From a virus (taxonomy: Duplodnaviria; Heunggongvirae; Uroviricota; Caudoviricetes), in IMG/VR virus record IMGVR_UViG_2778261541_000006, positions 1-60,273 of that record: a stretch of 60,273 nucleotides of DNA; one strand, written 5' to 3'. The translations under genes and the position numbers were made by a program. Below, in pieces: positions 7,610-40,629 of this stretch. Under the pieces are notes generated by a model, which saw only the letters and a list, made by a program, of their open reading frames with translations, did no database searches and was not told where the DNA came from. Position 1 is the stretch's first letter; every line of letters begins with the position of its first letter.

Positions 7610-7815
7610 ATACTAACAGATCGTCTATGTGGCTAGAATCGTTCGAGTTTAGCGATTAAACGGAAGTTCTGGTCGATTATGATTAGTGCATATTCATGCA
7701 CAGGCACACAAAATCTGGAGATATTGATCAGCGTTTATGTATAGTTTGTAATATAAAATCGCCTTGAACGGAGTTTGTGCGTTATGAGAATCAATCTTAA
7801 CTCTGGAGTAAGATA

Positions 7816-8184: not shown

Positions 8185-8390
8185 CTCATTTACCACAGTT
8201 AAAACCCCGCTTCATTGCGGGGTTTGCATCATGCGCCAATAAAAGCTATTTATTCTGCGTCAAGTTGTAACATCTAATCCACTATTATATATCGTTATGT
8301 TTGGCATATAACAGATAATTAAATGAATTATATCCAGATCTAATTTTATGCGGTTCTGGAACCCGGCTGCGTACTATATAATAGAAAAAA

Positions 8391-9746: not shown

Positions 9747-9924
9747 ACGTGTTCCTTTGGGCAGGATAGAGCAAGTCGCCTGCTTAATTGCTGAAGAAAG
9801 AAATACAAATTTGTAACGCTGTGGATCTTCTTTATGCGTCCACAATCAGTAAATATTGGATACTTGCAAGGTGCGCGAAACACTAAAGATTGTCAATTAA
9901 TAATTAACACCTCTTATAGTTACT

Positions 9925-11499: not shown

Positions 11500-12835
11500 T
11501 TATCCGGTGCGCCGTAAAATCCCGTCCTTCAGGGAGGGGATATAAGGCGTGGTTTTCCACCTAACTGTTTTTGTTTAAAATAGTGGGATGAAGCGACTAC
11601 AAGCATTTAAATTCCAGTTAAGACCCGGTGGTCAACAGGAGCGTCAAATGAGGCTCTTTGCCGGAGCTTGTCGTTTCGTTTTCAATCGTGCACTGGCACT
11701 TCAGAATGAGAATTATGAGGCCGGGAATAAATACATCCCTTACACGAAAATGGCTTCCTGGTTGGTTGAGTGGAAAAAAGACACTGAAACCGAATGGCTT
11801 AAAGATTCTCCCTCACAGCCATTGCAGCAGTCACTGAAAGACCTTGAGCGGGCCTACAAAAATTTCTTCCAGAAGCGGGCGGCTTTTCCCCGATTCAAAA
11901 AGCGGGGACAGAATGATGCATTCCGCTACCCGCAGGGTGTTAAGCTCGACCAGGAAAACAGCCGTATTTTTCTGCCGAAACTTGGCTGGATGCGCTACCG
12001 TAACAGCCGGCAGGTCACGGGGATTGTGAAAAATGTCACTGTCAGCCAGTCCTGCGGTAAATGGTACATCAGTATTCAGACAGAAAGTGAAGTATCCACT
12101 CCTGTTCACCCTTCAGCATCAATGGTCGGACTGGATGCTGGCGTGGCCAGGCTCGCCACGCTGTCAGATGGCACAGTCTTTGAGCCTGTAAACAGTTTCC
12201 AGAAAAACCAGAAAAAGCTGGCGAGACTTCAGCGCCAGTTAAGCCGCAAGGTCAGATTCAGCAACAACTGGCAGAAGCAGAAACGCAAAATACAGCAACT
12301 GCACTCCCGTATCGCAAATATCCGCAGAGACTACCTTCATAAAGTCACAACGATCATCAGCAAAAACCACGCAATGATTGTCATTGAGGATTTGAAGGTT
12401 AAACACATGTCAAAGTCAGCGGCGGGTACGATAAGTCAGCCGGGTCGCAATGTCCGGGCAAAATCAGGTTTAAACCGTTCGATACTGGATCAGGGCTGGT
12501 ATGAAATGCGCCGCCAGCTTGAGTACAAGCAGCTCTGGCGTGGCGGTCAGGTGCTTGCTGTTCCGCCAGCGTACACAAGCCAGCGTTGCGCGTGCTGTGG
12601 TCATACAGCGAAAGAAAATCGCCTGTCACAAAGTAAATTCAGATGCCAGGTATGTGGATATACAGCGAACGCCGATGTAAACGGCGCTCGTAACATTTTA
12701 GCGGCGGGGCACGCCGTTCTTGCCTGTGGAGGGATGGTGCAGTCAGGCCGCCCGTTGAAGCAGGAACCCACCGAAATGATTCAGGCGACAGCCTGAACGT
12801 AGCAGGAATCCACGCCCGTCAGGGCGTGGAGGGTG

Positions 12836-15632: not shown

Positions 15633-18600
15633 ATGAACAAGCTATCTATGTGGGTGTTTCGCTGTTCAAGTGTCAGCGAAATATTAAAATACATTAGGGC
15701 AATAACATCTCACCGAGCGCCGATTAAATACGGCGTGGAAAAGGTGGAAGGCAAAAGCTATGACCGACTGCGCCGGGAGGCGAATCAGAAGGCGATAGAT
15801 TTGCTTAATTCGCTGGTGGACGGCGCGACACTGACAGATGAACAGCGCCAGATCCTGGCTGGGTACACCGGTGAAGGCGGCATTGGCGGGTCCGTCTCCG
15901 AATATTACACACCAAAGCCGATCGCTGAAGGTGTCTGGGAGATCATGAAGCTCTACGGCGCGGACGTAGGTAACACTCTGGAACCATCGGCGGGAACCGG
16001 CGTTTTTAATGAGACAAAGCCGGTTGGTACGGTGATGACCGCGACTGAGATCAGCAGTGTTTCCGGTCGTATAAACCAGTTGTTACACCCGGAAGACAGC
16101 GTACAGATTTCCCCGTTCGAACAGCTGGCTGTAAGCACGCCTAACGATTCATTCGACCATGTTGTGGGTAACGTTCCGTTCGGTGGTCGTGATAACACAC
16201 GCAACATCGATAAGCCTTACGCAGAAGAAACGGACATGGGTTCTTACTTCATGCTCCGCATGCTGGACAAGATAAAGCCTAGCGGATTCATGTGTGTGAT
16301 TGTGCCGCCGTCCATTGTTTCAGGTTCAAACATGAAGCGGTTACGCCTGCGCCTATCCCGTAAAGCTGAATTTCTTGGCGCTCACCGCTTGCCTACCGGT
16401 ACTTTTGACGCAAACGGGACCAGTACGGTCGTTGACGTGGTGCTGATGCGCAAACATCCGGCGGAGATGGCTGAGAAAATCCCCCTGGTGGATGAAGGCA
16501 CTCTTGAATCGGCAAATGTGCTTTGGCCAACGTTTATTTCTGGCAAGTGGTTTGAAAAGGATGGCCGCCGGTTTGTTCATGGCACCCAGGAAAAGGGCTT
16601 CCAGGGGCGTATTGAGGTTCGTGCCGACGGGCAGATTGATAACCAGGCTCTTAAAGCGAAGCTGATTCATCGTTTCGAAAGTCGTATCGACTGGTCTTTG
16701 CTCGATATGGCTGAACCGTCACCGACCGCAGATGTTGTTGATGAAGGGGAAATGCGCCTGATTAATGGCGTATGGCAAAAATATGCTGGTGGTCGCTGGA
16801 TTGAAGCTGATGCCGGTAAGGCGCTTAAGATTGATGCTGCCAGTTATGGCGCGGATAGCTGGGAGGCTCTTCAGCGTAACCTGACTACAACAGAAGGCCG
16901 TCTCGGTATGACATTTACCCAGATGGCAAATGTCCGCGATAAGTACACCACATCAATCAGCGACGATATGGTGCAGCTGGTGGACTGGATTAACAGCCAG
17001 CCTGAAAAATACCGTGAACGCTTGTATCGTGGGGCGATGATTGGCCGGATGTTAATTGAATATCAGGATATGAAGGCCGCCGGGCATAGTGCTGAACAAA
17101 TCGAACAGCAGCGCCTTTCTCTGGTATCCCGTTTGCAGGCAGAGATTGACCGTTTTGGTAACCCCGGTCGCGGTCCGATAGCTAAATTATCAGGAAGCGG
17201 TGCGCGCGCCTGGTTTGCTTTCCGTGGTGCAATTAAGCTGGATGGCACTATTTCTGACGAGCTGACAGGAAAGCTGGTTACGCATGATTCCAGCGCCAGT
17301 TATGACTCCACCAGCTATCAGGACACCCTGCGTTATCTCTATAGCGATCTTACCCGCGATCCAATCCAGCTCGATGATTTCCGCCTTGCGTTTACCGGCG
17401 AACTGCCAGCCAGTGATGAAGAGTTGCTTAATTTATTGGCCAGCACCCCTGGTATTGCGGTTTCACCGTATGGCGGGATTGTTCCGTTCGCCCGCGCCAC
17501 CAGCGGCGACATTAACGAGATAGTGGCTCCAAAACAGGAATTTCTTGCCACACTCCCCGACGGTCCAGTAAAGAACAACGTCCTTAATCAGCTGGCAGCG
17601 ATCGAAGAGAAGCGCATCAAGACGCCAGCAGAGAATATCCGCTTTAAGCTCAATAGCCGTTGGTTCGACCGCTCCGTCATTCTGGAGTTTTTGCAGGAAA
17701 ACGGCTATCCGGATCTGCGCTATGTGCAGTCAGTGCAGCTGGAAGGCGACGAAATGGTTTCTGACACCTATCACGGTGGTGATGGTCTGTTCGTCGGGCA
17801 CCGATACGGTGTCGTCCAGCGCAAGGATAAAGAAACAGGCGAGATCCGCTACGAGTGGGACCGTAAATCAGGTGAAAACGCGACCGGGTTCCCGGCACAG
17901 CTGGAAAAGTATCTCAATGGTGCGCGTATCGGTGGCAAAGATAGCGCGACGGCGAACGGCTACCGCGAGCAGATGGCACTGCTTGAGGACCAGTTCAATA
18001 AGTGGATCAAGACGCACGATCGCTACGATGAGCTGGTTGCCAAATACAACGATGTGTTCAATAGCAATATCCCGTATGAACACTCTGGCGATCCGCTTGG
18101 GTTGAAGGGATTAAGCGGTAAGCGCCAGCCATTTGATTACCAGAATAGCGAGGTGCGCCGACTGTCCGAAGATGGGCGCGGCATCCTGGGCTTCGGCACC
18201 GGGCTGGGTAAAACGACGACCGCGCTGGCGCTTGAGGCGTTCAACTATGAGAACGGTCGCTCCACCCGTACTGCTTATGTAGTGCCTAAATCAGTGCTGG
18301 AAAACTGGTATTACGAAGCAAAAGAGTTCCTGAGTGAAGAGGCATTCAGTAACTACCTGTTCGTCGGTCTTGATGTGCTGATGGATGGCGATCAGATTCG
18401 CCAGGTGCCGGTGCTCAATGAGAACGGTAAACCTGTTCTTGGTACTGATGGCACTCCAGTTATGCGCGATGCTCTTAAGCTGGCAGATGAAGCCACTATC
18501 ACGGCGCGGATGAACGCGATCCCGCACTCAAACTACCGTGCAGTCGTGTTTACCAAAGAACAATACGCCCGCATTCCGCTACGTGATGACACCGTAGATG

Positions 18601-21600
18601 AGCATGCACAAGACATGCTTTATGACTTCGTTGCTGCCGGGCGTGTGGCCAGCGCAATGGACTCCGATTCCCATCGCAAAGAGGCGGCGCGTCGCCGGGT
18701 ATTGTCGGAGTATTCAGATACCGGTACCGAAAAAGCAGAGAAGTATCCGTACTTTGAGGATATGGGCTTCGACAGCGTGATTGCTGACGAAGGCCACAAC
18801 TACCGCAATAGCTATAAAAATGGTCGCGAAGCGTCACAGCTGGCCTATCTGCCCACCAGCGCGGTGGCGCAATCGGCGCGAGATATGGCAATCAAAAACG
18901 CGTACCTGATGAAAAAGAATGGCGGGCGCGGACCGGTTCTCCTGACTGCAACGCCAGTCGTTAACACCCCGATCGATGCATACAACATGCTTTCTCATGT
19001 TCTGCCGAAGGAATACTGGCAGAAGATGGGGATCTACAGTCCTGATGACTTCGTTAAATTCTTCGGCAAGACCAGGCTGGAAACGGTACAGAAAATCAGC
19101 GGCGAAGTTGAAGAAAAAATGGCGCTGGTGGGTTTTGAAAACCTTGATGCGCTGCGCGGCATATTCCATCGCTGGACAACGCTTAAAACGGCGGAAGACG
19201 TTAAGGATACCGTGGAGATCCCGGAACTGGACGAACACCAGCAGGATGCACCACTTACTGAAGAACAACTGGCGGCGTATGAAGAATTGCGTCAGCAGGC
19301 GGAAGCGGCAGCAAAAGCCAACAATGGCGTAACGACCTCGGTCAATGAAGACGGCGTGATTGAGCACGAGAAAGCCAGTCCGATCTTCTCAATAATCAGG
19401 GATATGGACCGCGTATGTACTGACATGGACCTGTACTATCGCCGGATCACCTATCGTTTCCTGCCGGAGTACGCCGATGCGGTGCAGCAGCTGGCGGACA
19501 GTTTGCCTAAACAAGCCACCAGCGAAGACGACGACAGTGATGATTCAATCACGCAGCAATCGCAATACTCCCTGATAGATAAGGGCGAGTTTATTCAGTT
19601 GCAGGTTCCGGAAGCGTTCGAGCAGGAAGTGAATAAGCGCCTGGCCAAGTTTGGCATTGACGAACAGACCGTAACTCACCCCGTTACACCCAAATACGCG
19701 AAGCTGATCGCCACGCTGAAGGAGTTTTTCCCGGAAGGTAAGCAAATCATCTTCACCGATGAAAAAACGCAGCACCAGAAGCTCAAGCGCATTATCTGCA
19801 ATGCTCTTAACCTTGAACCTTCAAAGGTGGGGATCCTGAATGCTCAGACGGTTGCCGAGGCAGGTAAAACCGGTAAGAAACTGAAAGCGGTTAAACCGCC
19901 GAAAGAGTTACCGGATGAACCAACAGATGCACAGATAGCGAAATACAACGAGCAAATGGTTCTGTATGACGCCTATATCGCGCAGCAAAATGAAATGTCG
20001 TTGGGCGGTCTGGAAAAGATTGCAGCCGACTTCCAGGAGGGCCGGACTCCGATCATCATCTGCAACAAAAAGGCAGAGGTGGGTATCAACCTGCATCGAG
20101 GAACGACTGACATCCATCATCTGACGTTGCCATGGACACCAGCCAGTATCGCACAGCGTAACGGTCGCGGTGCCCGAGTTGGCTCCAACCGTGCAAGCGT
20201 TCGCGTTCATTACTACTGCGGCAAGGGTTCTTTCGATGAATACCGACTGAAGACGCTGAAACGTAAAGCAGGCTGGATCTCCGATATCCTCCGTTCAGAT
20301 AAGTCAGAAATGGAGAACGCCGACGCCAACGATATGATCGAAATGCAGATGTATACCGCTAAGGATGATGGCGAACGTCTGGCAATGATGCAGGTTCAAA
20401 TGGATAAGGCGAAAGCCGCGCAACGCGCTCGCCAGAAAGAACAGGCTACTATCGACCTTCAGAACTACATCAAGGCGCAGCACGCAGCTGGCGAGGATGT
20501 GGAGGTACTTACCGCTGAATTAGAGCGAAGCAAAGCGGAACTTGAAAAGACCTCCGCCGAGGTAGCTAAATTCAAACAGGCGGTAATGGCCAAAGCAGCT
20601 GATAACGCAGACTGGAAGGCCCGCTGGGGTAGCGTCCATCACACAGACCGTACGTTGTTAGCACAGTATCGCGCGTCGTTGAAAAGCGCCATTCAGCGCA
20701 AGGCTAATATCTCTCAAGCCATCTCCCGCTATGAGAAATTATTGAACCGTACTCAGAAGGCCGCGACGGATATCAAACGCCTGCGCCCGCTGGTGGAGGA
20801 TGCAATAAATAAAGGCATTCTGGATGTTGATCCTGACCTGGTTAACCATGCGAGTGAGTTCCTTGTTATCGGCGATCGCTCATGGCGTGTAGGCCAATAC
20901 TACGATTGTGCCGGTGATATCGTTCGCATTAAGTCGCTGGACTTCGACAGCCAGCGCGCAGACGTGGAGATCATCTTTACCTTAAGAGGCACCAAATCGG
21001 GTAACTGGGATGTGAAGACGCTGGATAAACAGGTGGATGTAACTCCCGATGAAGATGCTGTTATGCAGAAAATCAGTGGTGGCGTCTCCATCGCCGGGAT
21101 TAACGACATCATTTCCTGTGACGATTTCTACCGTTTCCAGCAGCGCGGCATGATCAAAATCACTGACTCATACGGCGTTCAGACTACAGAGTCAGGCTAT
21201 AGCATTGATTTTGTTGGTACCTATACGGACCCACTGAAGCATGCGGTTTACCCGGATCGCCGTGACGGCGCGCTGAAGTCGTCAATTGCAAAATGGGTGC
21301 TTGGTATGATGTCGGAAGGGAATAACCGCCAGATCCGTTCGGCAGAAACATTCCTGGTTGAATTGTTTGGCTCCAATTATGGCGATGTAATCGCGTCATA
21401 CGGAGATACGCTATCCCCTGAAGCAATTCAGGAGAAAATAGCGGATGCGATCGCAAAAATGCCGGAGAAAACAAGCCAGGGGGCTACTCGTAACGGGGAT
21501 TCTGAACTTGAGGTCACCAATGCCATTTTCGGTACCCATGAGTTCCGGGCGTCAGATTATGAGATCACCACAGCACAGTTTGGCACCATTGGCATTTACA

Positions 21601-22400
21601 GCAATAAAGCCGAGATCAAGCAGGCAATGGACGCAGCAAACGCGCGCATCGCAGCAGAACGGGAAGCCAATCTGAATCATGCAGTCGCCGCACTGACTCA
21701 ATCGTGGGTAACAGCAATCAGGGAGGCCGCCACCACAGGGAAAATCACACCTGCAATTGCGGATGTCGTAAACGCCGGCTCTAAATTTATGGATGCCTAT
21801 CAAATGGATGCGGTGCAGTTGCCATCAGCCTATGGCCAACTCAGCTATCGCATGACCTACAACCTGGTATCAATGTTTTCCGACCTTGCCATCCTTGGGC
21901 TGGTGGATCTTAACGAGGTTACGCCGGAATTGCTCAGCATGCGCAAGAATCATGTGGAGATATTGCAGAGAATTAACACGGTTCTTGCCGGGCGCACCGA
22001 TGAAGAGAAACAGGCCGACGCTGATCGGATAAACCTGGCCCTTGGCAACATCACGGAGGAAGAAATTGCCGCCAGAAACGAGAAACAAGAAGAGTTATCA
22101 TCAATACAGGGTGATGCCACCAGCATAGCTCAGTCTCTTGGTCTGAATTATCGCGTATCCACCGCCGACCTGAAGATGATGTACGCACCGAAATTCGCCG
22201 CTGGCGAGGTATTTGGGCTTCAGGAAGCCTCAGGCATGAAAGGCGTTCTTTTCCGTGCGAAAGACGCAATCAAGGCGAAATTCGGCGCTCGCTGGCTGCC
22301 AGCGAAGGCGAAGAACAGCGATTTCCCGGGTAACTGGTGGATTATCGAGACAAAACACAACGTGGCGGACGTTCTGGCCGTCATCCAACAATACGCATAA
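15633..22400 (+). CDS. darB: DarB antirestriction protein (N6-adenine methyltransferase plus helicase domains)
   Basis: 2255-aa ORF, the size of P1 DarB; N-terminal MTase-like region (NVPFGG) and helicase motifs (GFGTGLGKTT, DEGHNYRN). Confidence 0.9.
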   Translation: MNKLSMWVFRCSSVSEILKYIRAITSHRAPIKYGVEKVEGKSYDRLRREANQKAIDLLNSLVDGATLTDEQRQILAGYTGEGGIGGSVSEYYTPKPIAEGVWEIMKLYGADVGNTLEPSAGTGVFNETKPVGTVMTATEISSVSGRINQLLHPEDSVQISPFEQLAVSTPNDSFDHVVGNVPFGGRDNTRNIDKPYAEETDMGSYFMLRMLDKIKPSGFMCVIVPPSIVSGSNMKRLRLRLSRKAEFLGAHRLPTGTFDANGTSTVVDVVLMRKHPAEMAEKIPLVDEGTLESANVLWPTFISGKWFEKDGRRFVHGTQEKGFQGRIEVRADGQIDNQALKAKLIHRFESRIDWSLLDMAEPSPTADVVDEGEMRLINGVWQKYAGGRWIEADAGKALKIDAASYGADSWEALQRNLTTTEGRLGMTFTQMANVRDKYTTSISDDMVQLVDWINSQPEKYRERLYRGAMIGRMLIEYQDMKAAGHSAEQIEQQRLSLVSRLQAEIDRFGNPGRGPIAKLSGSGARAWFAFRGAIKLDGTISDELTGKLVTHDSSASYDSTSYQDTLRYLYSDLTRDPIQLDDFRLAFTGELPASDEELLNLLASTPGIAVSPYGGIVPFARATSGDINEIVAPKQEFLATLPDGPVKNNVLNQLAAIEEKRIKTPAENIRFKLNSRWFDRSVILEFLQENGYPDLRYVQSVQLEGDEMVSDTYHGGDGLFVGHRYGVVQRKDKETGEIRYEWDRKSGENATGFPAQLEKYLNGARIGGKDSATANGYREQMALLEDQFNKWIKTHDRYDELVAKYNDVFNSNIPYEHSGDPLGLKGLSGKRQPFDYQNSEVRRLSEDGRGILGFGTGLGKTTTALALEAFNYENGRSTRTAYVVPKSVLENWYYEAKEFLSEEAFSNYLFVGLDVLMDGDQIRQVPVLNENGKPVLGTDGTPVMRDALKLADEATITARMNAIPHSNYRAVVFTKEQYARIPLRDDTVDEHAQDMLYDFVAAGRVASAMDSDSHRKEAARRRVLSEYSDTGTEKAEKYPYFEDMGFDSVIADEGHNYRNSYKNGREASQLAYLPTSAVAQSARDMAIKNAYLMKKNGGRGPVLLTATPVVNTPIDAYNMLSHVLPKEYWQKMGIYSPDDFVKFFGKTRLETVQKISGEVEEKMALVGFENLDALRGIFHRWTTLKTAEDVKDTVEIPELDEHQQDAPLTEEQLAAYEELRQQAEAAAKANNGVTTSVNEDGVIEHEKASPIFSIIRDMDRVCTDMDLYYRRITYRFLPEYADAVQQLADSLPKQATSEDDDSDDSITQQSQYSLIDKGEFIQLQVPEAFEQEVNKRLAKFGIDEQTVTHPVTPKYAKLIATLKEFFPEGKQIIFTDEKTQHQKLKRIICNALNLEPSKVGILNAQTVAEAGKTGKKLKAVKPPKELPDEPTDAQIAKYNEQMVLYDAYIAQQNEMSLGGLEKIAADFQEGRTPIIICNKKAEVGINLHRGTTDIHHLTLPWTPASIAQRNGRGARVGSNRASVRVHYYCGKGSFDEYRLKTLKRKAGWISDILRSDKSEMENADANDMIEMQMYTAKDDGERLAMMQVQMDKAKAAQRARQKEQATIDLQNYIKAQHAAGEDVEVLTAELERSKAELEKTSAEVAKFKQAVMAKAADNADWKARWGSVHHTDRTLLAQYRASLKSAIQRKANISQAISRYEKLLNRTQKAATDIKRLRPLVEDAINKGILDVDPDLVNHASEFLVIGDRSWRVGQYYDCAGDIVRIKSLDFDSQRADVEIIFTLRGTKSGNWDVKTLDKQVDVTPDEDAVMQKISGGVSIAGINDIISCDDFYRFQQRGMIKITDSYGVQTTESGYSIDFVGTYTDPLKHAVYPDRRDGALKSSIAKWVLGMMSEGNNRQIRSAETFLVELFGSNYGDVIASYGDTLSPEAIQEKIADAIAKMPEKTSQGATRNGDSELEVTNAIFGTHEFRASDYEITTAQFGTIGIYSNKAEIKQAMDAANARIAAEREANLNHAVAALTQSWVTAIREAATTGKITPAIADVVNAGSKFMDAYQMDAVQLPSAYGQLSYRMTYNLVSMFSDLAILGLVDLNEVTPELLSMRKNHVEILQRINTVLAGRTDEEKQADADRINLALGNITEEEIAARNEKQEELSSIQGDATSIAQSLGLNYRVSTADLKMMYAPKFAAGEVFGLQEASGMKGVLFRAKDAIKAKFGARWLPAKAKNSDFPGNWWIIETKHNVADVLAVIQQYA

Positions 22401-22433: not shown

Positions 22434-22874
22434 ATGGCCACACTATCTGATACAATAAAACCGAATAAAACATATCTTGAGGCGGTACTCCGTACAGCGT
22501 TGTTAGGAAAGACAGAAGACGAATACGTTGATTTCTTCCTGTCAGGGCTACGCGGGCTATTACTGAAAAATCCCCGCCTGTACCGCAGCTATGGTCCATA
22601 CTGGCCGGAAATTAAAAAATTATTACTGGAGCGCGGTTATGGTAATTTCGGTCGTCTCGTTGACCGTGACGTTCGCAAAATTTACCGTTATGACCGCCCG
22701 GCGCTGACGCTCATAGCCGCGACGCTCTACAGCCAGGAGCGTTTTGATAATGGTCAGATATACTCAGCCTGGCATTTACTGCCAGTGCCTGAAGAGGTTG
22801 ACGACCAGGACTATGAGTTTGAGTCTTACGATTTGGAAGTTGAAGCCTTGGCACAGGCTGGAGAGAAAACTTGA
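22434..22874 (+). CDS. ulx: Ulx
   Basis: 146-aa ORF immediately downstream of darB; size and position match P1 ulx. Confidence 0.55.
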   Translation: MATLSDTIKPNKTYLEAVLRTALLGKTEDEYVDFFLSGLRGLLLKNPRLYRSYGPYWPEIKKLLLERGYGNFGRLVDRDVRKIYRYDRPALTLIAATLYSQERFDNGQIYSAWHLLPVPEEVDDQDYEFESYDLEVEALAQAGEKT

Positions 22875-23119
22875 AAAAGCGATACTACACAGTAAAGCAT
22901 GGGACGCTACGAGCATTACAAGAGTTTGCTGACAAGCACAACGTTGAGGTGCGCAGGGAAGGGGGAAGTAAAGCTCTGCGCATGTACCGCCCGGACGGGA
23001 AATGGCGGACGGTCGTCGATTTCAAAACTAACAGTGTTCCCCAAGGTGTCCGCGACCGGGCATTCGAAGAATGGGAGCAGATCATCATAGATAACGCATT
23101 GCTTCTGAATGCTGATTAA
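22871..23119 (+). CDS. lxc: Lxc/Bof, C1 co-repressor
   Basis: 82-aa ORF overlapping ulx stop; P1 Bof/Lxc is 82 aa at this position. Confidence 0.5.
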   Translation: MKKRYYTVKHGTLRALQEFADKHNVEVRREGGSKALRMYRPDGKWRTVVDFKTNSVPQGVRDRAFEEWEQIIIDNALLLNAD

Positions 23120-23122
23120 GAA

Positions 23123-23152
23123 CTCTCCGGCCTAGGGAGATTAGGCCGGAGA
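23123..23152. terminator. bidirectional hairpin between lxc and the SIR2 gene
   Basis: Inverted repeat TCTCCGGCCTAG / TAGGCCGGAGA flanked by AT-rich sequence between convergent genes. Confidence 0.4.
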
Positions 23153-23160
23153 TAAATATA

Positions 23161-24465
23161 CTATATAAACTTAGATATAATATCGTGAATCTGTTGTAGC
23201 GGGATATCTTCCATCTCATTCTTAATAAGAGAGCGGTTAGATGCTGTCAGTGAAGGCCATTTTGTTTTCCAGGCTAGATATGCTCGCCATGAGCAGCCTG
23301 TTTCGTAAGGTTTATTCATATTAGTCATTGAGTGCTCAACCGCATGTATGTATTTTTTCTCAAAATTGGTTCCTTTTACTTCAAATAAACTACCGAAATA
23401 AATAAGCCATTTTGCCAAGTGTTCATACTGCTCCCATGCGCCAGGCTTTTTAGTAAGTTCTATTTTTTTATCTATTATATTACAAAAAACATTTAATACA
23501 TTTTCATTATTCCAGCTATATCCAGATGATGAAATGGAGGAAATGATATGATAAAAAGAATCCTCTAGCTTCAAGAACTCTATTTTATACTCTCTTCCGT
23601 TTTTTATTACCGATTTGATTGAGTGCCTCAATTTGTCTTTTATTTTTTTTGCTTCTGGAATTTTATCGTTAAGTTTTCTAAAGAAATCAGATACTTCTGT
23701 TTTATCTATAACCCTAACCCCATAGCAGGAAAAATAGTAATCTTTAATAGGTTGCAATAGTTCCCCTCGGGAAACAAGGAAAATATTGGAGGACATTACG
23801 TTGTCCCGTGAAAATACCTTATATTCATTTATAATAGCCTTTAGGTTCGCGTCACTTAGAGAATAGCCAAGGATAACAATAGTGTTTTCATGTAGAACTG
23901 TGCTTAGTTTATTAGAAAAGTAAGAATTACCATTTATAAATCTGAAATAATCCTCGCTAGTAACAACCATGTCTGATGGGGAGTCTATAGAACCGTGAAC
24001 ATGGTAGACTTTAACCTCACAATTATATTTTGGAATTGGCAGGCCGGGGGTGATTGTACACGTTCGATTCTCTCCAGCCAGCTTTTCTGCTAACTTGTCA
24101 TAATTTGTCGTAATTACTTTAAATGTGTTTTCTTTGAAAAAGTCTTGAATATATTCAATTGATGGATCAAGTTCGATTGAGGCTATGATTTTCTCAATCT
24201 CTTGGTAAATATTTTTCCCCGAAAGTATAAATTTTAGTGCAATAACCTGAGCAGCTTCTTCAAGGCTAAGGTCTTTTGCTTTTCCATCAGGAAATAATTC
24301 CTCTTTGAGTGAGTCACCATCCTTCAATAAACCGCACAGTTGCTCCAATAAAGATTGCCAACTTGGGGCTTTATCATCAGAAACAGCCTTTGAAAATCCA
24401 GTGCCTGTAAGAAAGCACAGCCTATGTGTAGCCGCTGCATAGGCAATTTCTATATACTCGCTCAT
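23161..24465 (-). CDS. SIR2-family protein (ThsA-like SIR2 domain) with uncharacterised C-terminal domain
   Basis: 434-aa ORF in a very AT-rich block; N-terminal half carries SIR2-type motifs in the same order as Thoeris ThsA (FLTGTGFS, TTNYDKL, HVHGS, ILGYSLSD); C-terminal 200 aa unrecognised. Confidence 0.7.
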   Translation of the reverse strand: MSEYIEIAYAAATHRLCFLTGTGFSKAVSDDKAPSWQSLLEQLCGLLKDGDSLKEELFPDGKAKDLSLEEAAQVIALKFILSGKNIYQEIEKIIASIELDPSIEYIQDFFKENTFKVITTNYDKLAEKLAGENRTCTITPGLPIPKYNCEVKVYHVHGSIDSPSDMVVTSEDYFRFINGNSYFSNKLSTVLHENTIVILGYSLSDANLKAIINEYKVFSRDNVMSSNIFLVSRGELLQPIKDYYFSCYGVRVIDKTEVSDFFRKLNDKIPEAKKIKDKLRHSIKSVIKNGREYKIEFLKLEDSFYHIISSISSSGYSWNNENVLNVFCNIIDKKIELTKKPGAWEQYEHLAKWLIYFGSLFEVKGTNFEKKYIHAVEHSMTNMNKPYETGCSWRAYLAWKTKWPSLTASNRSLIKNEMEDIPLQQIHDIISKFI

Positions 24466-24521
24466 TACTTACTCCATTTACTTATAGTTCTACGGAGAAG
24501 TATACCCTAATGCATTGACGT

Positions 24522-25163
24522 TTATAGATAATTTCCTTTTCCTGTTAATACTCCCTTAGGCACCTGTTTTTGTGCCAGCGTTTGGGTGCCGCGAATTATG
24601 TTAATCAGAGGGCTTAGTAACGATGGTTCCTGGCGTGCCTCAACTTCTCCAGCCATTGCACTGATGTAGTCGGCGCTGGCAACGTTGTTGTATTCCGTCG
24701 CAAAGCAACATAGTAACGTCAGAACATGCTCTGTCGTTATTTCGCTCCAGTTGATGTTGAAAAATTCATCGCCTTTTTTATCGTGTTCGGAATCGAAGAT
24801 GCTTTGGTGGAGGATGTATTTGCCGGATTCCTTGCGCGGTAACTTGATTGCTTTCTGGCGTTCCAGCTCCTTATAAATCTGCATTGCCTCAATTAGTACC
24901 GGCCTGCCGTTCATGAAGGGATCGCGCAACCTTACACGCTGGCCAACTCGACCAGTAATAAAGCTGTTTTCCTCTTCCACCAGCACGATAAAACCTTTTT
25001 CCTCTTTCTCACGCAATTCGCGCAGCAACTGGAGTTCCATATCGCGGCGGCGTTCAGGGTAGCTGGTCCGCTCAGCCATTATCAGCTCGTTGTTGATCCA
25101 TGCAGCAGTCATTGACGCCGGTTTGCCGACGCTCATCGAAACAACGCATATTTTCTTATCCAT
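24522..25163 (-). CDS. hypothetical protein
   Basis: 213-aa ORF from Met50 of the track ORF (24522..25310), preceded by a GGGGG RBS; higher GC than the SIR2 gene; no recognisable domain. Confidence 0.45.
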   Translation of the reverse strand: MDKKICVVSMSVGKPASMTAAWINNELIMAERTSYPERRRDMELQLLRELREKEEKGFIVLVEEENSFITGRVGQRVRLRDPFMNGRPVLIEAMQIYKELERQKAIKLPRKESGKYILHQSIFDSEHDKKGDEFFNINWSEITTEHVLTLLCCFATEYNNVASADYISAMAGEVEARQEPSLLSPLINIIRGTQTLAQKQVPKGVLTGKGNYL

Positions 25164-25423
25164 AGCGCCCCCTACAAAAAAGAAAAGCCACCAGCGGCGG
25201 CTTAGCAATACAACTGAAGGTAGCGCCCGGTACTCAGACTGTGCCGTCCATGGAATATTTGAAAAGGGATCCATCCGTACCGGGCGTGTGATGATTCTGA
25301 CTGAAGTCACTTGTCAGTTGTCAATTATTTATTATTAAAAATAATATATTTATTAGTGCATACAAATAAGGCACTAAGTGTGCACATTGCAACCTCAGAG
25401 AGGAAACATTCAACTAGATTGTT

Positions 25424-25457
25424 ATTGCTCTAATAAATTTGATTTATTAGAGCAAAT
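25424..25457. promoter_or_regulatory. C1 operator pair upstream of icd-ant module 1
   Basis: ATTGCTCTAATAAATTT followed head-to-head by an inverted near-copy (ATTTATTAGAGCAAAT); matches the asymmetric 17-bp P1 C1 operator consensus. Confidence 0.6.
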
Positions 25458-25757: not shown

Positions 25758-25979
25758 ATGGTTAATGCCAATCCTTGCGCACGCCCTGAATTTATCTGGC
25801 GCTTTTACTCCTGCCAGAAACGTCACTATCACTTCGTTATCGCACCAACAGAAGATGAGGCACGTTCTCAGCTTCCGGATGCTCCCTGTATTTTCTCTGC
25901 CCGCTTTTCTACCGATTTGCGCAATTCTCTCAGTTACTGGTGCCTCCCTGTTAACGCTTCTGCTCAGGAGGGGCTATGA
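25758..25979 (+). CDS. Icd-like small protein, translationally coupled to ant
   Basis: 73-aa ORF overlapping the downstream antirepressor start by 4 nt, the arrangement of P1 icd-ant1. Confidence 0.5.
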   Translation: MVNANPCARPEFIWRFYSCQKRHYHFVIAPTEDEARSQLPDAPCIFSARFSTDLRNSLSYWCLPVNASAQEGL

Positions 25980-27088
25980 GAACGTCATTAGTCACCCGTG
26001 AAGAGATGATCGAGGCAATTGAACAGCACACTGCCTGTATCAGTACCAGGGATATACCAGGCGTTATTGCCAACTACTTCATGATCACCAAACAACTTTA
26101 CCGGAGAAAGGACAAGAACGCGGTTCACCGCATTCTTCTAACTGATATCCGTGAATACCTGCTCGAACAGGGTCGTCTTGATTATGCAACCGTAACCGCC
26201 GAAGCACGCAAGGAGGCACACAGAATGAAAGCAACTAACGTTAAATCAGAAAAAATTCATGCACCTTCAGTTCAGGAATCGGAGCTGGTGGTTGTTCAAA
26301 ATCAGCCGGATGAAATTCCCGTTCTGGAATGGCAGGGAGTACGTGTCGTAACAACCGAAACTCTTGCTAAGGGGTACGGAACCGATGAAGGCAATATTCG
26401 TAAAAATTTGTCTTGCAACTCCGATCGCTTTGAAGAAGGTAAACACTACTTTCTTTTAACTGGTTCAAAATTAAGAGAATTTAAGAACAGAGTTACTTTT
26501 AGTAACTCTGTTGGTAAGAACGCCAGAAACCTCACTCTCTGGACGGAACGCGGCGCAGCCCGCCACGCTAAAATGATCGAAACCGATCAGGCATGGGCAT
26601 TCTTTGAAAAACTGGAAGACAGCTACTTCCGGCAAAAAGAACAGCAACCGGTCGCAATCCCTCAGACGCTTCCCGAAGCTCTGCGCCTGGCTGCCGAGCT
26701 GGCTGAACAAAAGCAACTTCTGGAACAGAAAGCCCACCAGCTAAATCAGCAGCTGGTGGCCGCAGCCCCTAAGGTCGATTTTGCCGACCGGGTATCAGTG
26801 GCTAAGGGGATCCTGATTGGGAATTTTGCAAAGGTTGTTGGACTTAAGCAAAATGCGCTGTTTGCCTGGTTACGGGAGAACGGCATCCTGATTGCGTCCG
26901 GCGGACGTAAAAATGTACCGTTTCAGCAGTACATAAACGCCGGATATTTCACAGTGAAAGAAGTGGTGCTGGATGATGAAGATGGCTATCAGATACGGCT
27001 GACGCCTCAATTAACGGGTAAAGGCCAGCAGTGGTTGACGCGTAAACTGCTCGATGCTGGCTTGTTAAAACCGGTGGCGGCTGAATGA
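25976..27088 (+). CDS. phage antirepressor (ORF6N N-domain plus KilA-C/Ant C-domain), copy 1
   Basis: 370-aa ORF; central motif IPVLEWQGVRVVTTETLAKGYG and C-terminal region VSVAKGILIGNFAKVVGLKQNALFAWLRENGIL are characteristic of antirepressor families. Confidence 0.65.
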   Translation: MRTSLVTREEMIEAIEQHTACISTRDIPGVIANYFMITKQLYRRKDKNAVHRILLTDIREYLLEQGRLDYATVTAEARKEAHRMKATNVKSEKIHAPSVQESELVVVQNQPDEIPVLEWQGVRVVTTETLAKGYGTDEGNIRKNLSCNSDRFEEGKHYFLLTGSKLREFKNRVTFSNSVGKNARNLTLWTERGAARHAKMIETDQAWAFFEKLEDSYFRQKEQQPVAIPQTLPEALRLAAELAEQKQLLEQKAHQLNQQLVAAAPKVDFADRVSVAKGILIGNFAKVVGLKQNALFAWLRENGILIASGGRKNVPFQQYINAGYFTVKEVVLDDEDGYQIRLTPQLTGKGQQWLTRKLLDAGLLKPVAAE

Positions 27089-27691: not shown

Positions 27692-28723
27692 CTAATCGCC
27701 ATCTTCCAGCAGGCGCACCATTGCCCCCGTTTCACTATCCAGGTTACGAATGTAGTTCATGACAATATTTACGTTGGTCCAGCCACCAGCTTGCATGATC
27801 TCCGGTATTGAAACTCCGGCGCGGGCCATATCTCGCGCGGCACCGACACGGGCACTGTGTCCAGACCAGGCCAGGTATCTCTGGCCAGAGTCATCCTTAG
27901 CGCCGTAAATCAATCGATGAGTTGCTTCAAAAATCCCTTCCAGGGCGCGAGTTGATAGCTGGCTGGTGGCAGATGGCGCGGCAACACCATTTTTTCTGAC
28001 ACGGCAAAACAAGTAGTTATTCGGATCATCAGCCACACCAGAGACAGAAATCCATCGCTCGACCAGTTTAGTTACCCCCAGGCTAAGTGCCTTCTCTACA
28101 CCTGCGGTGCTAACCAGCGTTTTCGTTCTGCCAATATGGATTAACATTCTCCCACCGTCAGTACGTGAGATATCTTTAACCCTGATCCTGGCAATTTCGG
28201 CTATACGTAACAGGGTGTTATAAGCAATCCCCAGAAATGCCAGATTACGTATATCCTGGCAGCGATCGCTATTTTCCATGAGTGAACGAACCTGGTCGAA
28301 ATCAGTGCGTTCGAACGCCAGTGCCTGTTTTGCACGTTCACCGGCATCAACGTTTTCTTTTCGGATCCGTCGCATGACCAGTGAAACAGCATTACTGTCA
28401 CTTGGTCGTGGCAGCCCGGACCGACGATGAAGCATGTTTAGCTGGCCCAAATGTTGCTGGATAGTTTTTACTGCCAGACCGCGCGCCTGAAGATATAGAA
28501 GATAATCGCGAACATCTTCAGGTTCTGCGGGAAACCATTTCCGGTTATTCAACTTGCACCATGCCGCCCACGACCGGCAAACGGACAGAAGCATTTTCCA
28601 GGTATGCTCAGAAAACGCCTGGCGATCCCTGAACATGTCCATCAGGTTCTTGCGAACCTCATCACTCGTTGCATCGACCGGTAATGCAGGCAAATTTTGG
28701 TGTACGGTCAGTAAATTGGACAT
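27692..28723 (-). CDS. cre: Cre tyrosine site-specific recombinase
   Basis: 343-aa translation (MSNLLTVHQNLPALPVDATSDEVRKNLMDMFRDRQAFSEHTWK ... MVRLLEDGD) matches P1 Cre as I recall it. Confidence 0.97.
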   Translation of the reverse strand: MSNLLTVHQNLPALPVDATSDEVRKNLMDMFRDRQAFSEHTWKMLLSVCRSWAAWCKLNNRKWFPAEPEDVRDYLLYLQARGLAVKTIQQHLGQLNMLHRRSGLPRPSDSNAVSLVMRRIRKENVDAGERAKQALAFERTDFDQVRSLMENSDRCQDIRNLAFLGIAYNTLLRIAEIARIRVKDISRTDGGRMLIHIGRTKTLVSTAGVEKALSLGVTKLVERWISVSGVADDPNNYLFCRVRKNGVAAPSATSQLSTRALEGIFEATHRLIYGAKDDSGQRYLAWSGHSARVGAARDMARAGVSIPEIMQAGGWTNVNIVMNYIRNLDSETGAMVRLLEDGD

Positions 28724-30760: not shown

Positions 30761-31855
30761 TTATTCAGCCGCCACCGGTTTTAACAAGCCAGCATCGAGC
30801 AGTTTACGCGTCAACCACTGCTGGCCTTTACCCGTTAATTGAGGCGTCAACCGTATCTGGTAGCCATCTTCATCATCCAGCACCACTTCTTTCACCGTGA
30901 AATACCCCGCGTTGATGTACTGCTGGAACGGCACATTTTTACGTCCACCGGACGCTATCAGGATGCCGTTCTCCCGTAACCAGACAAACAGCGCGTTTTG
31001 CTTAAGTCCAACAACCTTTGCAAAATTCCCAATCAGGATCCCTTTAGCTACTGATACCCGGTCGGCAAAATCGACCTTAGGAGCGGCGGCCACCAGCTGC
31101 TGATTTAGCTGGTGGGCTTTCTGTTCCAGAAGCTGCTTTTGTTCAGCCAGTTCGGCAGCCAGGCGTAGGGCTTCTGGTAATGTTTGGGGGATTGTGATCG
31201 GTTGCTGTTCTTTTTGTCGGAAGTAGCTGTCTTCCAGTTTTTCAAAGAATGCCCATGCTTCATTTGTGTCCACGATCTTAGACATGCGTGCAGCACCGCG
31301 TTCGGCCCAGAGAATTACCTGACTTGTATATTTGCTAACCAAGTGACTAATAGTCACTAGCCTTTTAAATTCCTTTAACTTTGAACCGGTTAAGAGATAG
31401 TAATGCTTACCTTCTTCAAAGCGATCGGAGTTGCGAGACAAATTTTTACGAATATTGGCTTCATCGGTACCATACCCTCTAGCAAGAGTCTCGGTTGTTA
31501 CGACACGTACTCCCTGCCATTCCAGAACGGGAATTTCATCCAGCTGACTTTGAACAACCACCAGCCCGGATTCCTGAATTTCTGATTTAACGTTAGTTGC
31601 TTTCATTCTGTGTGCCTCCTTGCGTGCTTCGGCGGTTACGGTTGCATAATCAAGACGACCCTGTTCGAGCAGGTATTCACGGATATCAGTTAGAAGAATG
31701 CGGTGAACCGCGTTCTTGTCCTTTCTCCGGTAAAGTTGTTTGGTGATCATGAAGTAGTTGGCAATAACGCCTGGTATATCCCTGGTACTGATACAGGCAG
31801 TGTGCTGTTCAATTGCCTCGATCATCTCTTCACGGGTGACTAATGACGTTCTCAT
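30761..31855 (-). CDS. phage antirepressor (ORF6N plus KilA-C), copy 2
   Basis: 364-aa ORF; N-terminal about 88 aa and C-terminal about 185 aa identical or nearly so to copy 1, central segment diverged. Confidence 0.65.
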   Translation of the reverse strand: MRTSLVTREEMIEAIEQHTACISTRDIPGVIANYFMITKQLYRRKDKNAVHRILLTDIREYLLEQGRLDYATVTAEARKEAHRMKATNVKSEIQESGLVVVQSQLDEIPVLEWQGVRVVTTETLARGYGTDEANIRKNLSRNSDRFEEGKHYYLLTGSKLKEFKRLVTISHLVSKYTSQVILWAERGAARMSKIVDTNEAWAFFEKLEDSYFRQKEQQPITIPQTLPEALRLAAELAEQKQLLEQKAHQLNQQLVAAAPKVDFADRVSVAKGILIGNFAKVVGLKQNALFVWLRENGILIASGGRKNVPFQQYINAGYFTVKEVVLDDEDGYQIRLTPQLTGKGQQWLTRKLLDAGLLKPVAAE

Positions 31856-40508: not shown

Positions 40509-40629
40509 TTGACCGTTGCTACCGACCGGGCCACCTTAACATCCGGTCTGTATATAGACTATTTTTTACGTGCCGGAAGTCACTCTTAACGCCCTTCCGA
40601 CCCTTGCCAGACGGCACAAAGGATGCGCT

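What the first reader, a model, noticed from the sequence alone, without database searches (positions are those of the whole stretch)
23120..25170. AT-rich SIR2-domain gene at the position where P1 carries its res/mod restriction system
Seen in sequence: a 434-aa ORF (23161..24465, minus strand) in a block of roughly 30% GC, sharply below flanking backbone genes; its N-terminal half has SIR2-type motifs in the same order as the Thoeris ThsA SIR2 domain (FLTGTGFS, TTNYD, HVHGS, ILGYSLSD), while the C-terminal 200 aa matches nothing I recognise (not an obvious SLOG, TIR, HerA or APAZ). Established: SIR2 domains are NAD+-depleting effectors in Thoeris, DSR, SIR2-HerA and short-pAgo systems; in P1 the interval between lxc/ulx and cre holds the EcoP1I type III system. 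Inference: this is a defence or abortive-infection cargo gene, possibly single-gene, with an unrecognised sensor domain. No ThsB/TIR, HerA or pAgo partner is adjacent; the neighbouring 213-aa ORF (24522..25163) has backbone-like GC and no recognisable domain, so its partnership is uncertain.
Basis: partly seen in the sequence, partly recalled or inferred. Interest (0 to 1): 0.85.

Follow-up and report, generated by a model that had tools for sequence, protein, structure and literature searches.

The report
Stand-alone SIR2 defence gene in P1 slot
A P1-like plasmid prophage carries, exactly where phage P1 keeps its restriction enzyme, a foreign single gene for a compact SIR2-type enzyme that most likely kills infected cells by destroying NAD+; the gene family is widespread but, as far as I could find, untested.

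Summary
A 434-aa ORF (23161-24465, minus strand) is the lowest-GC 1.3-kb stretch of the window: 35.2% GC against 48% overall, so not ~30%. It fills the interval between the stop codons of lxc and mat, where P1 carries EcoP1I res/mod. The "213-aa neighbour" is Mat, a backbone gene and not a partner.

The N-terminal half is a SIR2_2 domain (E=2e-23). Its closest folds are anti-phage NADases: KomC, ThsA, Avs5 and DSR2. The catalytic Asn121 and His157 are invariant. The C-terminal 180 aa form a HEAT-like alpha-solenoid. That domain occurs only in this family and always sits behind this SIR2.

The family has at least 661 protein clusters, occurs in 426 species genomes and extends across several phyla. 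It has no conserved neighbour in 63 loci and often lies beside other defence genes or at prophage ends.

The same P1 slot is empty in RCS47 and holds the validated CapRel(SJ46) system in phage SJ46.

Best reading: a single-protein, DSR-like, NAD+-depleting abortive-infection system. Function, trigger and promoter are inferred, not shown. It fails membership tests for Thoeris, DSR1/2, SIR2-HerA, SPARSA, Avs5, Lamassu and Kongming. A preprint's "sole-Sir2" (~440 aa) may be related, but that could not be tested.

The parts
23161..24465 (-). 434-aa SIR2-family ORF, the cargo gene (end coordinate includes the stop codon)
   Evidence: ORF list. Pfam SIR2_2 E=2.1e-23. 99.6% identical to 'SIR2 family protein' WP_023155280.1 on E. 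coli plasmid pFORC64.1. 35.2% GC.
23701..24465 (-). N-terminal SIR2 (SIRim-type) NADase domain, aa 1-255
24397..24405 (-). Codons for G21-T22-G23, the glycine-rich NAD-binding loop (motif FLTGTGFS)
   Evidence: Invariant in 36 family members and in the divergent branch (G31/G33 of A4).
24103..24105 (-). Codon for Asn121 (TTNYD), the predicted catalytic Asn
   Evidence: Invariant. Aligns to ThsA N112 by the offsets of the 6lhx match (query 118-222 to chain 109-218) and lies in the 'ittnyd' block aligned to DSR2. N133/H171 are the DSR2 catalytic residues (PMC11087589).
23995..23997 (-). Codon for His157 (HVHGS), the predicted catalytic His
   Evidence: Invariant. Aligns to DSR2 H171 ('vyhvHgs' against 'llkvHgd'). 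The H171A mutation abolishes DSR2 NADase activity (PMC11087589).
23164..23700 (-). C-terminal all-helical HEAT-like alpha-solenoid domain, aa 256-434; putative sensor or regulatory domain
23124..23152 (.). 11-bp-stem GC-rich hairpin between the convergent lxc and SIR2 genes; cargo-specific, bidirectional terminator-like
   Evidence: Terminator scan and sequence. Each different cargo in this slot brings its own, different hairpin right after the lxc stop codon.
24466..24521 (-). 56-bp mat-SIR2 spacer with a GGAG Shine-Dalgarno and only a weak promoter-like site (TATACT -10, 3/6 -35)
   Evidence: Sequence. The strict scan finds no promoter or terminator in it. The loose scan scores 8/12.
22871..23119 (+). 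lxc (backbone), left boundary of the cargo slot
   Evidence: Annotated Lxc/modulator protein in P1, RCS47, SJ46 and JL22. Homology among P1-likes ends at its stop codon.
   Evidence: Annotated Mat/maturation control protein in P1-family phages. Homology resumes at its stop codon. 47.8% GC.
25345..25362 (-). Omat-equivalent C1 operator upstream of mat, followed by conserved Pmat/LPmat sequence; could also drive the SIR2 gene by read-through
   Evidence: Alignment to P1 2628-2645 and downstream is near-identical from the operator onward (with the P1 annotation).

Best explanation
The gene is horizontally acquired defence cargo sitting in a swappable slot of P1-like phage-plasmids, between the stop codons of lxc and mat.

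It encodes a self-contained, single-protein immune system of the defence-associated-sirtuin type. The N-terminal SIR2 domain (catalytic Asn121 and His157) is kept inactive in uninfected lysogens. The family-specific C-terminal alpha-solenoid recognises an infection cue, most likely a protein of a superinfecting phage, as the alpha-solenoid CTD of DSR2 recognises a tail-tube protein. Binding relieves autoinhibition and/or drives SIR2-SIR2 oligomerisation into a tetramer or filament, as in ThsA, Avs5, KomC and DSR2. The enzyme then hydrolyses NAD+, and the infected cell stops supporting phage growth (abortive infection). This protects the clonal population and the resident plasmid prophage.

Shown here:
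- the fold and conserved catalytic residues
- cargo status and exact slot boundaries
- absence of any conserved partner
- exclusivity of the C-terminal domain to this family
- repeated carriage by temperate phages and in defence-rich neighbourhoods

Inferred:
- NADase activity
- anti-phage phenotype
- sensor role of the C-terminal domain
- oligomerisation
- expression in the lysogen
For: Fold and active site:
- Pfam SIR2_2 E=2e-23.
- PADLOC hits go only to SIR2 defence models: PDC-S25, ThsA, LmuA, Dsr2 and SIR2.
- The closest solved relatives by sequence are SeThsA, DSR2, ThsA and KomC.
- Asn121, His157 and the GTG loop are invariant in both the ~434-aa and the divergent ~444-aa branches. They align to ThsA N112 and DSR2 H171, which are catalytic (PMC11087589).

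Single-gene status:
- In 63 loci from different species, the largest flanking-gene cluster occurs in 6 loci, at scattered positions and orientations.
- No TIR, HerA, pAgo or STAND gene lies anywhere in the window.

Sensor-like C-terminal domain:
- It is conserved together with the SIR2 domain at 55-60% identity over 97% of the length.
- It is an alpha-solenoid.
- It is found only in this family.
- DSR2's phage-sensing CTD is also an alpha-solenoid.

Defence context:
- The same slot holds EcoP1I in P1.
- In SJ46 it holds a RelA/SpoT-family gene identical over 373 aa to PDB 7ztb. SJ46 encodes the validated defence system CapRel(SJ46) (PMC9712102).
- The slot is empty in RCS47.
- Immediate neighbours of homologues include dGTPase x3, type I REase, AbiD, AbiU, HamB, PD-T7-1, PD-T7-5 and MADS genes.
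- The E. coli chromosomal homologue sits directly after the integrase at a lambdoid prophage end.
- A preprint reports that a single ~440-aa Sir2 protein ('sole-Sir2') hydrolyses NAD+ in vitro, and that a homologue of it protects against T2 and T4.

Foreign origin: 35.2% GC against 48%.
Against: - No experiment bears on this protein.
- No convincing sigma-70 promoter was found in the 56-bp spacer or nearby.
- The gene follows mat with no terminator between them, and mat keeps its C1 operator and late promoter. The gene might therefore be repressed in lysogens and expressed only during P1 lytic growth, which would not fit lysogen defence.
- The defence-island association was not compared with a background control.
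- AF2 confidence is lowest around the active-site loops, residues 120-122 and 181-183.
- In the sole-Sir2 preprint the CRISPR-linked versions gave no protection in E. coli, and the text places the Sir2 domain at the C-terminus. It may therefore be a different family.
Confidence: 0.62

Rival explanations
1. Orphan effector awaiting a signal made elsewhere. On this reading the protein is a ThsA-like or CBASS/type III-CRISPR-like NADase effector, activated by a small-molecule second messenger produced by an unlinked sensor (for example a TIR or cyclase encoded on the chromosome). The C-terminal domain would be the ligand receptor.
For: - The best sequence relatives in the PDB are ThsA proteins.
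- One of 125 neighbours in other genomes is ThsB-like.
- Mobile elements often carry shortened or partial systems (statement in PMC10879196).
Against: - The C-terminal domain is an alpha-solenoid, not SLOG, Macro, CARF, SAVED or any known nucleotide-sensor fold.
- ThsB adjacency is 1 in 63 loci.
- The gene spreads as a lone gene across several phyla and on phages, which would be hard for an effector that depends on a host-encoded signal generator.
Confidence: 0.1
2. Phage-serving function expressed with mat. On this reading the gene is co-transcribed with mat from the C1-repressed and late promoters. It would act during P1's own development or induction, for example to shut down host metabolism, to exclude competitors only during lytic growth, or as a post-segregational toxin that stabilises the plasmid prophage. 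It would not be a standing defence in lysogens.
For: - It lies on the same strand as mat, 56 bp downstream, with no terminator between them and no clear promoter of its own.
- Omat, Pmat and LPmat are conserved upstream of mat.
Against: - Homologues occur as lone genes in chromosomes and defence-rich neighbourhoods unrelated to P1 or mat.
- The slot's other occupants, the type III R-M system and CapRel(SJ46), are lysogen-expressed defences. CapRel is also co-directional with mat.
- Depleting NAD+ during the phage's own lytic growth would be self-harming.
- A weak TATACT -10 with an AT-rich upstream region does exist 33 nt before the ATG.
Confidence: 0.1
3. Ordinary sirtuin. On this reading it is an NAD-dependent protein deacylase or ADP-ribosyltransferase that modifies a specific protein, as the RefSeq name 'SIR2 family NAD-dependent protein deacylase' implies, with a regulatory rather than an immune role.
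For: - The RefSeq/PGAP product name.
- The catalytic His and Asn are shared with deacylases, so chemistry other than NAD+ hydrolysis cannot be excluded from sequence alone.
Against: - Only SIR2_2 (PF13289) matches, and no classical SIR2 model does.
- All DefenseFinder-identified antiphage SIR2 proteins fall in one of two SIR2 clades, and neighbourhoods of that clade are 12-fold enriched in defence systems (bioRxiv 10.1101/2024.09.18.613514). Placement of this protein in that clade was inferred from the fold hits, not tested phylogenetically.
- The gene is low-GC mobile cargo in a defence slot.
Confidence: 0.08

Closest known systems
DSR2 (defence-associated sirtuin 2, Bacillus subtilis; PDB 8k98, 8wkt and others)
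   Same: - A single protein with an N-terminal SIR2 NADase domain. Sequence match covers query residues 51-260, E=1e-8.
- The catalytic Asn and His are conserved.
- The C-terminal region is built as an alpha-solenoid that, in DSR2, binds the phage tail-tube protein.
- No partner gene.
   Different: - 434 aa against ~1000 aa.
- No middle domain.
- The C-terminal domain is a short 10-helix solenoid with no detectable sequence or specific fold relationship to DSR2's.
- The NCBIfam Dsr2 equivalog scores 30 bits against a cut-off of 1400.
- The trigger is unknown.
Thoeris ThsA (SIR2-SLOG; PDB 7uxt, 6lhx, 8bto)
   Same: - The same catalytic residues.
- Similar overall length.
   Different: - No SLOG or Macro ligand-binding domain.
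- No ThsB/TIR partner in the window.
- ThsB is adjacent in only 1 of 63 related loci.
sole-Sir2 (bioRxiv 10.1101/2024.12.27.630466)
   Same: - Described as a single stand-alone Sir2-like protein of ~440 aa whose Sir2 domain resembles that of DSR2.
- It converts NAD+ to ADPR in vitro.
- A close homologue protects E. coli against T2 and T4.
- Its size and single-gene nature match this family, which has branches of 431-437 aa and ~444 aa.
   Different: - It is defined by being embedded in type I-C cas operons under crlRNA control. Neither the window nor the two divergent members examined have any CRISPR context.
- The preprint places the Sir2 domain at the C-terminus with a novel N-terminal part, which is the opposite order to this protein.
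- No sequence or accession was available, so identity could not be tested.
PADLOC candidate PDC-S25
   Same: The best-scoring PADLOC model, E=1.8e-24. It is a candidate single-gene system.
   Different: - The best matched stretch covers only residues 100-247 of the protein and positions 127-278 of a 517-position profile, so only the SIR2 core is shared.
- It is a computational candidate with no experimental validation that I could find.
Other occupants of the P1 mat-lxc slot: EcoP1I res/mod in P1 and CapRel(SJ46) in phage SJ46
   Same: - The same insertion point, bounded by the lxc and mat stop codons.
- Each cargo has its own terminator hairpin.
- All are immunity functions carried by the plasmid prophage.
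   Different: Unrelated proteins and mechanisms: type III restriction, tRNA pyrophosphorylation by a fused toxin-antitoxin, and predicted NAD+ depletion.
KomC (Kongming), Avs5 SIR2 domain and human FAM118B
   Different: - KomC works with KomA and KomB.
- Avs5 has a STAND NTPase and a large sensor.
- FAM118B is vertebrate.
- None carries this C-terminal domain.

Membership tests
SIR2_2 / anti-phage 'SIRim' sirtuin domain superfamily | Matches Pfam PF13289 above its gathering score | tested here: met
   83.4 bits against a cut-off of 24.5, residues 117-253.
SIR2_2 / anti-phage 'SIRim' sirtuin domain superfamily | Conserved catalytic Asn and His plus a glycine-rich NAD loop | tested here: met
   N121, H157 and G21/G23 are invariant. 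They align to ThsA N112 and DSR2 H171. The catalytic role of the equivalent residues is reported in PMC11087589.
SIR2_2 / anti-phage 'SIRim' sirtuin domain superfamily | NAD+ hydrolase activity | not testable with these tools
   Needs a biochemical assay.
Thoeris (ThsA/ThsB) | ThsA carries a C-terminal SLOG (type I) or Macro (type II) signal-binding domain | tested here: not met
   No Pfam, PADLOC or NCBIfam match beyond residue ~253. The C-terminal model is an alpha-solenoid. The ThsA profiles match only residues 117-236.
Thoeris (ThsA/ThsB) | An adjacent ThsB (TIR) gene | tested here: not met
   The neighbours are mat and lxc. No TIR is present in the window. A ThsB-like neighbour occurs in 1 of 125 flanking genes of homologues.
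DSR2 | Full-length match to the NCBIfam Dsr2 equivalog; ~1000-aa protein with middle domain and large CTD | tested here: not met
   30.4 bits against a cut-off of 1400, with only residues 117-212 matched. The protein is 434 aa.
DSR1 | Full-length match to the NCBIfam Dsr1 equivalog | tested here: not met
   21.2 bits against a cut-off of 1400.
SIR2-HerA (Nezha) | An adjacent HerA ATPase gene | tested here: not met
   No HerA in the window and no conserved neighbour in 63 loci. PADLOC SIR2 (HerA-type) models score only E=3e-6 or weaker, over short stretches.
SPARSA (short pAgo with SIR2-APAZ) | An APAZ domain fused to SIR2 and an adjacent short pAgo | tested here: not met
   No APAZ or Piwi match. 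No conserved neighbour.
Avs5 (SIR2-STAND) | A central STAND/NOD NTPase domain | tested here: not met
   No NTPase domain in Pfam. The region after SIR2 is 180 aa of alpha-solenoid.
Lamassu (LmuA with Sir2 effector) | An LmuB SMC-like partner, and a match to the LmuA C-terminal region | tested here: not met
   The LmuA profile PDLC03856 matches only positions 21-221 of 433, the SIR2 part. No SMC gene is adjacent in the window. SMC_N occurs in 2 of 125 neighbours elsewhere.
Kongming (KomABC) | KomA and KomB partner genes | tested here: not met
   No conserved neighbours. KomC is 264 aa and lacks the C-terminal domain.
PADLOC PDC-S25 candidate | Full-length match to the PDC-S25 profile (517-528 positions) | tested here: inconclusive
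   E=1.8e-24, but the best stretch covers only profile positions 127-278. The extent of the second stretch is not reported.
sole-Sir2 (CRISPR-supervised immune system) | A single ~440-aa protein with a DSR2-like Sir2 domain | tested here: met
   434 aa, single gene, with a match to the DSR2 SIR2 domain.
sole-Sir2 (CRISPR-supervised immune system) | Sequence homology to the published sole-Sir2 proteins | not testable with these tools
   No sequence or accession is held. The stated domain order (Sir2 at the C-terminus) conflicts with this protein.
sole-Sir2 (CRISPR-supervised immune system) | Located between cas3 and cas5c of a type I-C operon with a regulating SRU | tested here: not met
   The window locus lies between mat and lxc. 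No cas family appears among the 25 most frequent families listed for flanking genes of homologues, and two divergent members show no cas context.
P1-family mat-lxc cargo slot | Insert bounded by the lxc and mat stop codons, with different content in different P1-like genomes | tested here: met
   Homology breaks at both stop codons. The slot is empty in RCS47 and holds res/mod in P1, the 7ztb-identical RelA/SpoT gene in SJ46, and other genes in JL22 and Ro157c2YLVW.

The most novel reading that the evidence does not exclude
The C-terminal alpha-solenoid may be a previously unrecognised, minimal phage-protein sensor. That would make this 434-aa protein the smallest self-contained sensor-plus-NADase immune receptor.

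The lxc-mat interval of P1-like phage-plasmids may also be an unreported defence hotspot. It already swaps type III R-M, CapRel and SIR2, and its remaining uncharacterised occupants (the JL22 316-aa gene, the Ro157c2YLVW two-gene cassette and the MH422554 1.2-kb insert) could be new immune systems.
Probability: 0.4. Interest if true: 0.65.

Novelty: new variant of a known kind. Interest (0 to 1): 0.5.

Why it matters
- **A small model system.** If it works as proposed, this is a very compact (434 aa), partner-free NAD+-depleting immune protein. It is found in hundreds of species and on roughly one in ten P1-like plasmid prophages of E. coli. That makes it a tractable model for how a small helical-repeat domain switches a SIR2 NADase on.
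- **Practical relevance.** It is also a likely determinant of phage susceptibility, including for therapeutic phages, in clinical and livestock E. coli that carry P1-like plasmids.
- **A discovery site.** The lxc-mat slot exchanges type III restriction, CapRel and this SIR2, and so looks like a defence hotspot of a phage-plasmid. I found no paper describing it. It offers a defined place to look for further systems, as the P2 and P4 hotspots did.

Tried and rejected
- **Partner gene.** I clustered all ORFs within 5 kb of 63 full-length homologues. Nothing is conserved, so two-gene models were rejected.
- **The 213-aa neighbour as partner.** Rejected, because it is Mat.
- **Identity with known systems.** DSR1/2, Thoeris, SIR2-HerA, SPARSA, Avs5, Lamassu and Kongming each failed a defining feature (see the membership table).
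- **sole-Sir2.** I looked for a CRISPR I-C context in two divergent members and among neighbours, and found none. No sequences were available, so this stays unresolved.
- **Literature.** Searches for a described P1 hotspot, or for this SIR2 on phage-plasmids, found nothing specific. One malformed search and one malformed paper look-up returned errors.
- **Promoter.** The strict scan found none for the gene. The loose scan found only 8/12 matches. Expression therefore remains open.
- **Phage records.** None of the 20 INPHARED phage records that matched the 3-kb region carries the SIR2 gene. They match only the flanks. The gene was seen only in plasmid and genome records.
Full report
**What is in the sequence**

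The window is a P1-like phage-plasmid. Around the finding, the backbone genes run as follows:
- darB, 15633-22400 (+), 2255 aa
- ulx, 22434-22874 (+)
- lxc, 22871-23119 (+)
- the ORF in question, 23161-24465 (-), 434 aa
- mat, 24522-25163 (-)
- further on, cre, 27692-28723 (-)

The composition break is real but less extreme than stated. The ORF is 35.2% GC (GC3 32%). The comparison values are 47.8% for mat, 48.8% for ulx+lxc, 52.1% for darB and 48.0% for the window. It is the lowest-GC 1.3-kb stretch of the whole 60 kb.

The "213-aa neighbour with no recognisable domain" is the backbone gene mat. The partnership question is therefore settled in the negative.

**The slot**

In P1, the order is ref-mat-res-mod-lxc-ulx-darB. 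I aligned the junctions of six P1-like genomes. Homology stops precisely at the lxc stop codon on one side and resumes at the mat stop codon on the other. Each cargo brings a different GC-rich hairpin right after lxc; here it lies at 23124-23152.

The slot's contents differ between genomes:
- RCS47: empty, 39 bp.
- P1 and P7: the type III R-M system.
- Salmonella phage SJ46 and phage 673R5: a 373-aa RelA/SpoT-family gene. The SJ46 copy is identical over its full length to PDB 7ztb. SJ46 is the phage that encodes the experimentally validated defence system CapRel(SJ46) (PMC9712102).
- JL22: an uncharacterised 316-aa gene.
- Ro157c2YLVW: an HTH gene plus a 199-aa gene.
- MH422554: 1.2 kb of unannotated DNA.

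The interval therefore behaves as a defence hotspot. I found no paper that describes it as such.

The SIR2 cargo is common:
- 66 PLSDB plasmids carry it at 90-99.6% identity. The 30 listed are mostly 92-103 kb and 60 of the 66 are non-mobilizable; the one examined, pFORC64.1, is typed IncY.
- 70 of 5,426 complete E. coli genomes carry it, with 71 of 72 copies on plasmids.
- 694 genomes carry a P1-type mat, so roughly one P1-like element in ten has this cargo.
- None of the 20 phage records that matched the region carries it.

**The protein, N-terminal half**

- Pfam SIR2_2 matches residues 117-253 at E=2e-23.
- The only PADLOC hits are SIR2 defence models: PDC-S25, ThsA, LmuA, Dsr2 and HerA-type SIR2.
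- The nearest solved sequences are SeThsA, DSR2, ThsA and KomC.
- Asn121, His157 and the G21-T-G loop are invariant across the family and its divergent branch. They align with ThsA N112 and DSR2 H171, residues shown to be catalytic (PMC11087589).

The SIR2 assignment is therefore secure. NADase chemistry is a strong inference.

**The protein, C-terminal half**

A profile of this domain was searched against 1.84 billion representative proteins and found only 95. Every full-length hit is 406-480 aa with the domain at the C-terminus. All ten checked, including the most divergent and the truncated ones, have SIR2_2 in front. The domain is therefore not a module shared with other effectors. It is an obligate companion of this SIR2.

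DSR2's phage-sensing C-terminal domain is also described as a horseshoe-shaped alpha-solenoid. That makes a protein-binding sensor or regulator role the natural hypothesis, but it is an analogy of fold class, not homology.

**The family**

At least 661 protein clusters share 55-60% identity over 97% of the length, and nearly all are 431-437 aa. Relatives were confirmed in 426 species-representative genomes, mostly Gamma-, Beta- and Alphaproteobacteria. A ~444-aa branch reaches Bacteroidota, Bacillota and Planctomycetota.

Across 63 loci with full-length homologues, no flanking gene is conserved. The largest neighbour cluster is in 6 loci at scattered positions. Immediate neighbours are heterogeneous, but many are known defence genes: dGTPase x3, type I REase, AbiD, AbiU, Hachiman HamB, PD-T7-1, PD-T7-5, MADS and NERD+UvrD. 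I did not run a background control for this.

The 55%-identical E. coli chromosomal homologue sits immediately after the integrase at the end of a lambdoid prophage. This is a second, independent case of carriage by a temperate phage.

**Mechanism proposed**

It is a single-protein, DSR-like abortive-infection system. The steps are:
1. The alpha-solenoid senses an infection cue, probably a phage protein.
2. This relieves autoinhibition and/or promotes SIR2 oligomerisation. The closest structural relatives are deposited as helical or filament assemblies, and filament formation is reported to activate ThsA and Avs5.
3. NAD+ is hydrolysed.
4. The infected lysogen stops supporting the superinfecting phage.

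The architecture, the catalytic residues, single-gene status and context are shown here. Activity, phenotype, sensor role and oligomerisation are inferred. I put this at about 0.6.

**Open problem: expression**

The gene lies 56 bp downstream of mat on the same strand, with a good Shine-Dalgarno sequence. There is no terminator in between, and only a weak promoter-like site (TATACT with a 3/6 -35). mat keeps its P1-type C1 operator and its late promoter.

If the gene were expressed only by read-through from mat, it would be repressed in lysogens. That would favour a phage-serving or addiction role, which is one of the rival explanations. CapRel(SJ46) has the same orientation relative to mat, so co-directionality alone is not decisive.

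**Comparison with known systems**

The protein works like DSR2 or ThsA at the effector end, but it fails a defining feature of every named SIR2 system I tested:
- no SLOG or Macro domain and no ThsB (Thoeris)
- 30 and 21 bits against cut-offs of 1400 (Dsr2 and Dsr1 equivalogs)
- no HerA
- no APAZ or pAgo
- no STAND NTPase
- no LmuB
- no KomA or KomB

The best PADLOC model is the unvalidated single-gene candidate PDC-S25, and it matches only the SIR2 core.

A 2024 preprint names "sole-Sir2". It is a stand-alone ~440-aa Sir2 protein found inside type I-C cas operons. It hydrolyses NAD+ in vitro, and a non-CRISPR homologue of it protects E. coli against T2 and T4. Size and single-gene nature fit this family. 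However, the preprint places the Sir2 domain at the C-terminus, I found no CRISPR context for family members, and no sequences were available. Identity is therefore unresolved. If it is the same family, part of the function is already demonstrated and the novelty drops.

**Verdict**

The finding is a new variant of a known kind. It is a compact stand-alone SIR2 defence protein with a family-exclusive helical-repeat domain, carried in a swappable defence slot of P1-like phage-plasmids. Interest is moderate. The general idea would not surprise a specialist. Three things are worth an experiment: the size and reach of the uncharacterised family, its minimal architecture, and the hotspot shared with EcoP1I and CapRel.

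Noticed in passing
window 8394-9845 (-): A 484-aa HD + HD_assoc protein gives a very strong PADLOC dGTPase match (E=5e-149). It lies in the window's second lowest-GC patch (~7050-9400) and is probably another anti-phage cargo gene of this plasmid prophage.
   Followed up: partly
window 37741-43743 (+): A complete type I restriction-modification system: hsdM 37741-39300, hsdS 39300-40505 and hsdR 40570-43743, the last with an EcoR124-type C-terminal domain. This is further defence cargo on the same element.
   Followed up: partly
window 25976-27088 (+), also 30764-31855 (-) and 25424-25440: Where P1 has ref, this element has a 370-aa ORF6N + ANT/KilAC antirepressor-like gene. It has the same domain architecture as the 364-aa gene at 30764-31855. 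A perfect 17-bp C1 operator (ATTGCTCTAATAAATTT) lies between it and mat. Homology to P1 breaks just upstream of Omat.
   Followed up: partly
window 11588-12793 (+): A TnpB/IS605 OrfB-type gene (OrfB_IS605 + Cas12f1-like TNB + HTH), so a transposon-associated RNA-guided nuclease relative is inserted in the plasmid.
   Followed up: no
L085:1082-2032 (JL22); L086:1059-2633 (Ro157c2YLVW); L088:1021-2210 (MH422554): Other P1-like phages carry uncharacterised cargo in the same lxc-mat slot: a 316-aa protein with only a weak PDC-S34 hit, an HTH 240-aa gene plus a 199-aa gene with no PADLOC hits, and 1.2 kb with no annotated gene. These are candidate new defence genes.
   Followed up: partly
L095-L097:8001-9311: The E. 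coli chromosomal homologue (436 aa, 55% identical) lies directly downstream of the integrase at the edge of a lambdoid prophage, next to host response-regulator and ccm genes. This is a typical 'moron' position.
   Followed up: partly
L093:1026-3906 and L094:2542-5422: A divergent 450-aa family member is immediately preceded, on the same strand with a 58-bp gap, by a 489-aa Ser/Thr protein kinase gene in two independent contigs. This may be a lineage-specific two-gene variant.
   Followed up: no
window 10503-60017 (15 sites): Fifteen matches to the P1 C1-operator consensus with at most 3 mismatches, against 0.3 expected by chance. This is consistent with an intact P1-type immunity network on this element.
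   Followed up: no
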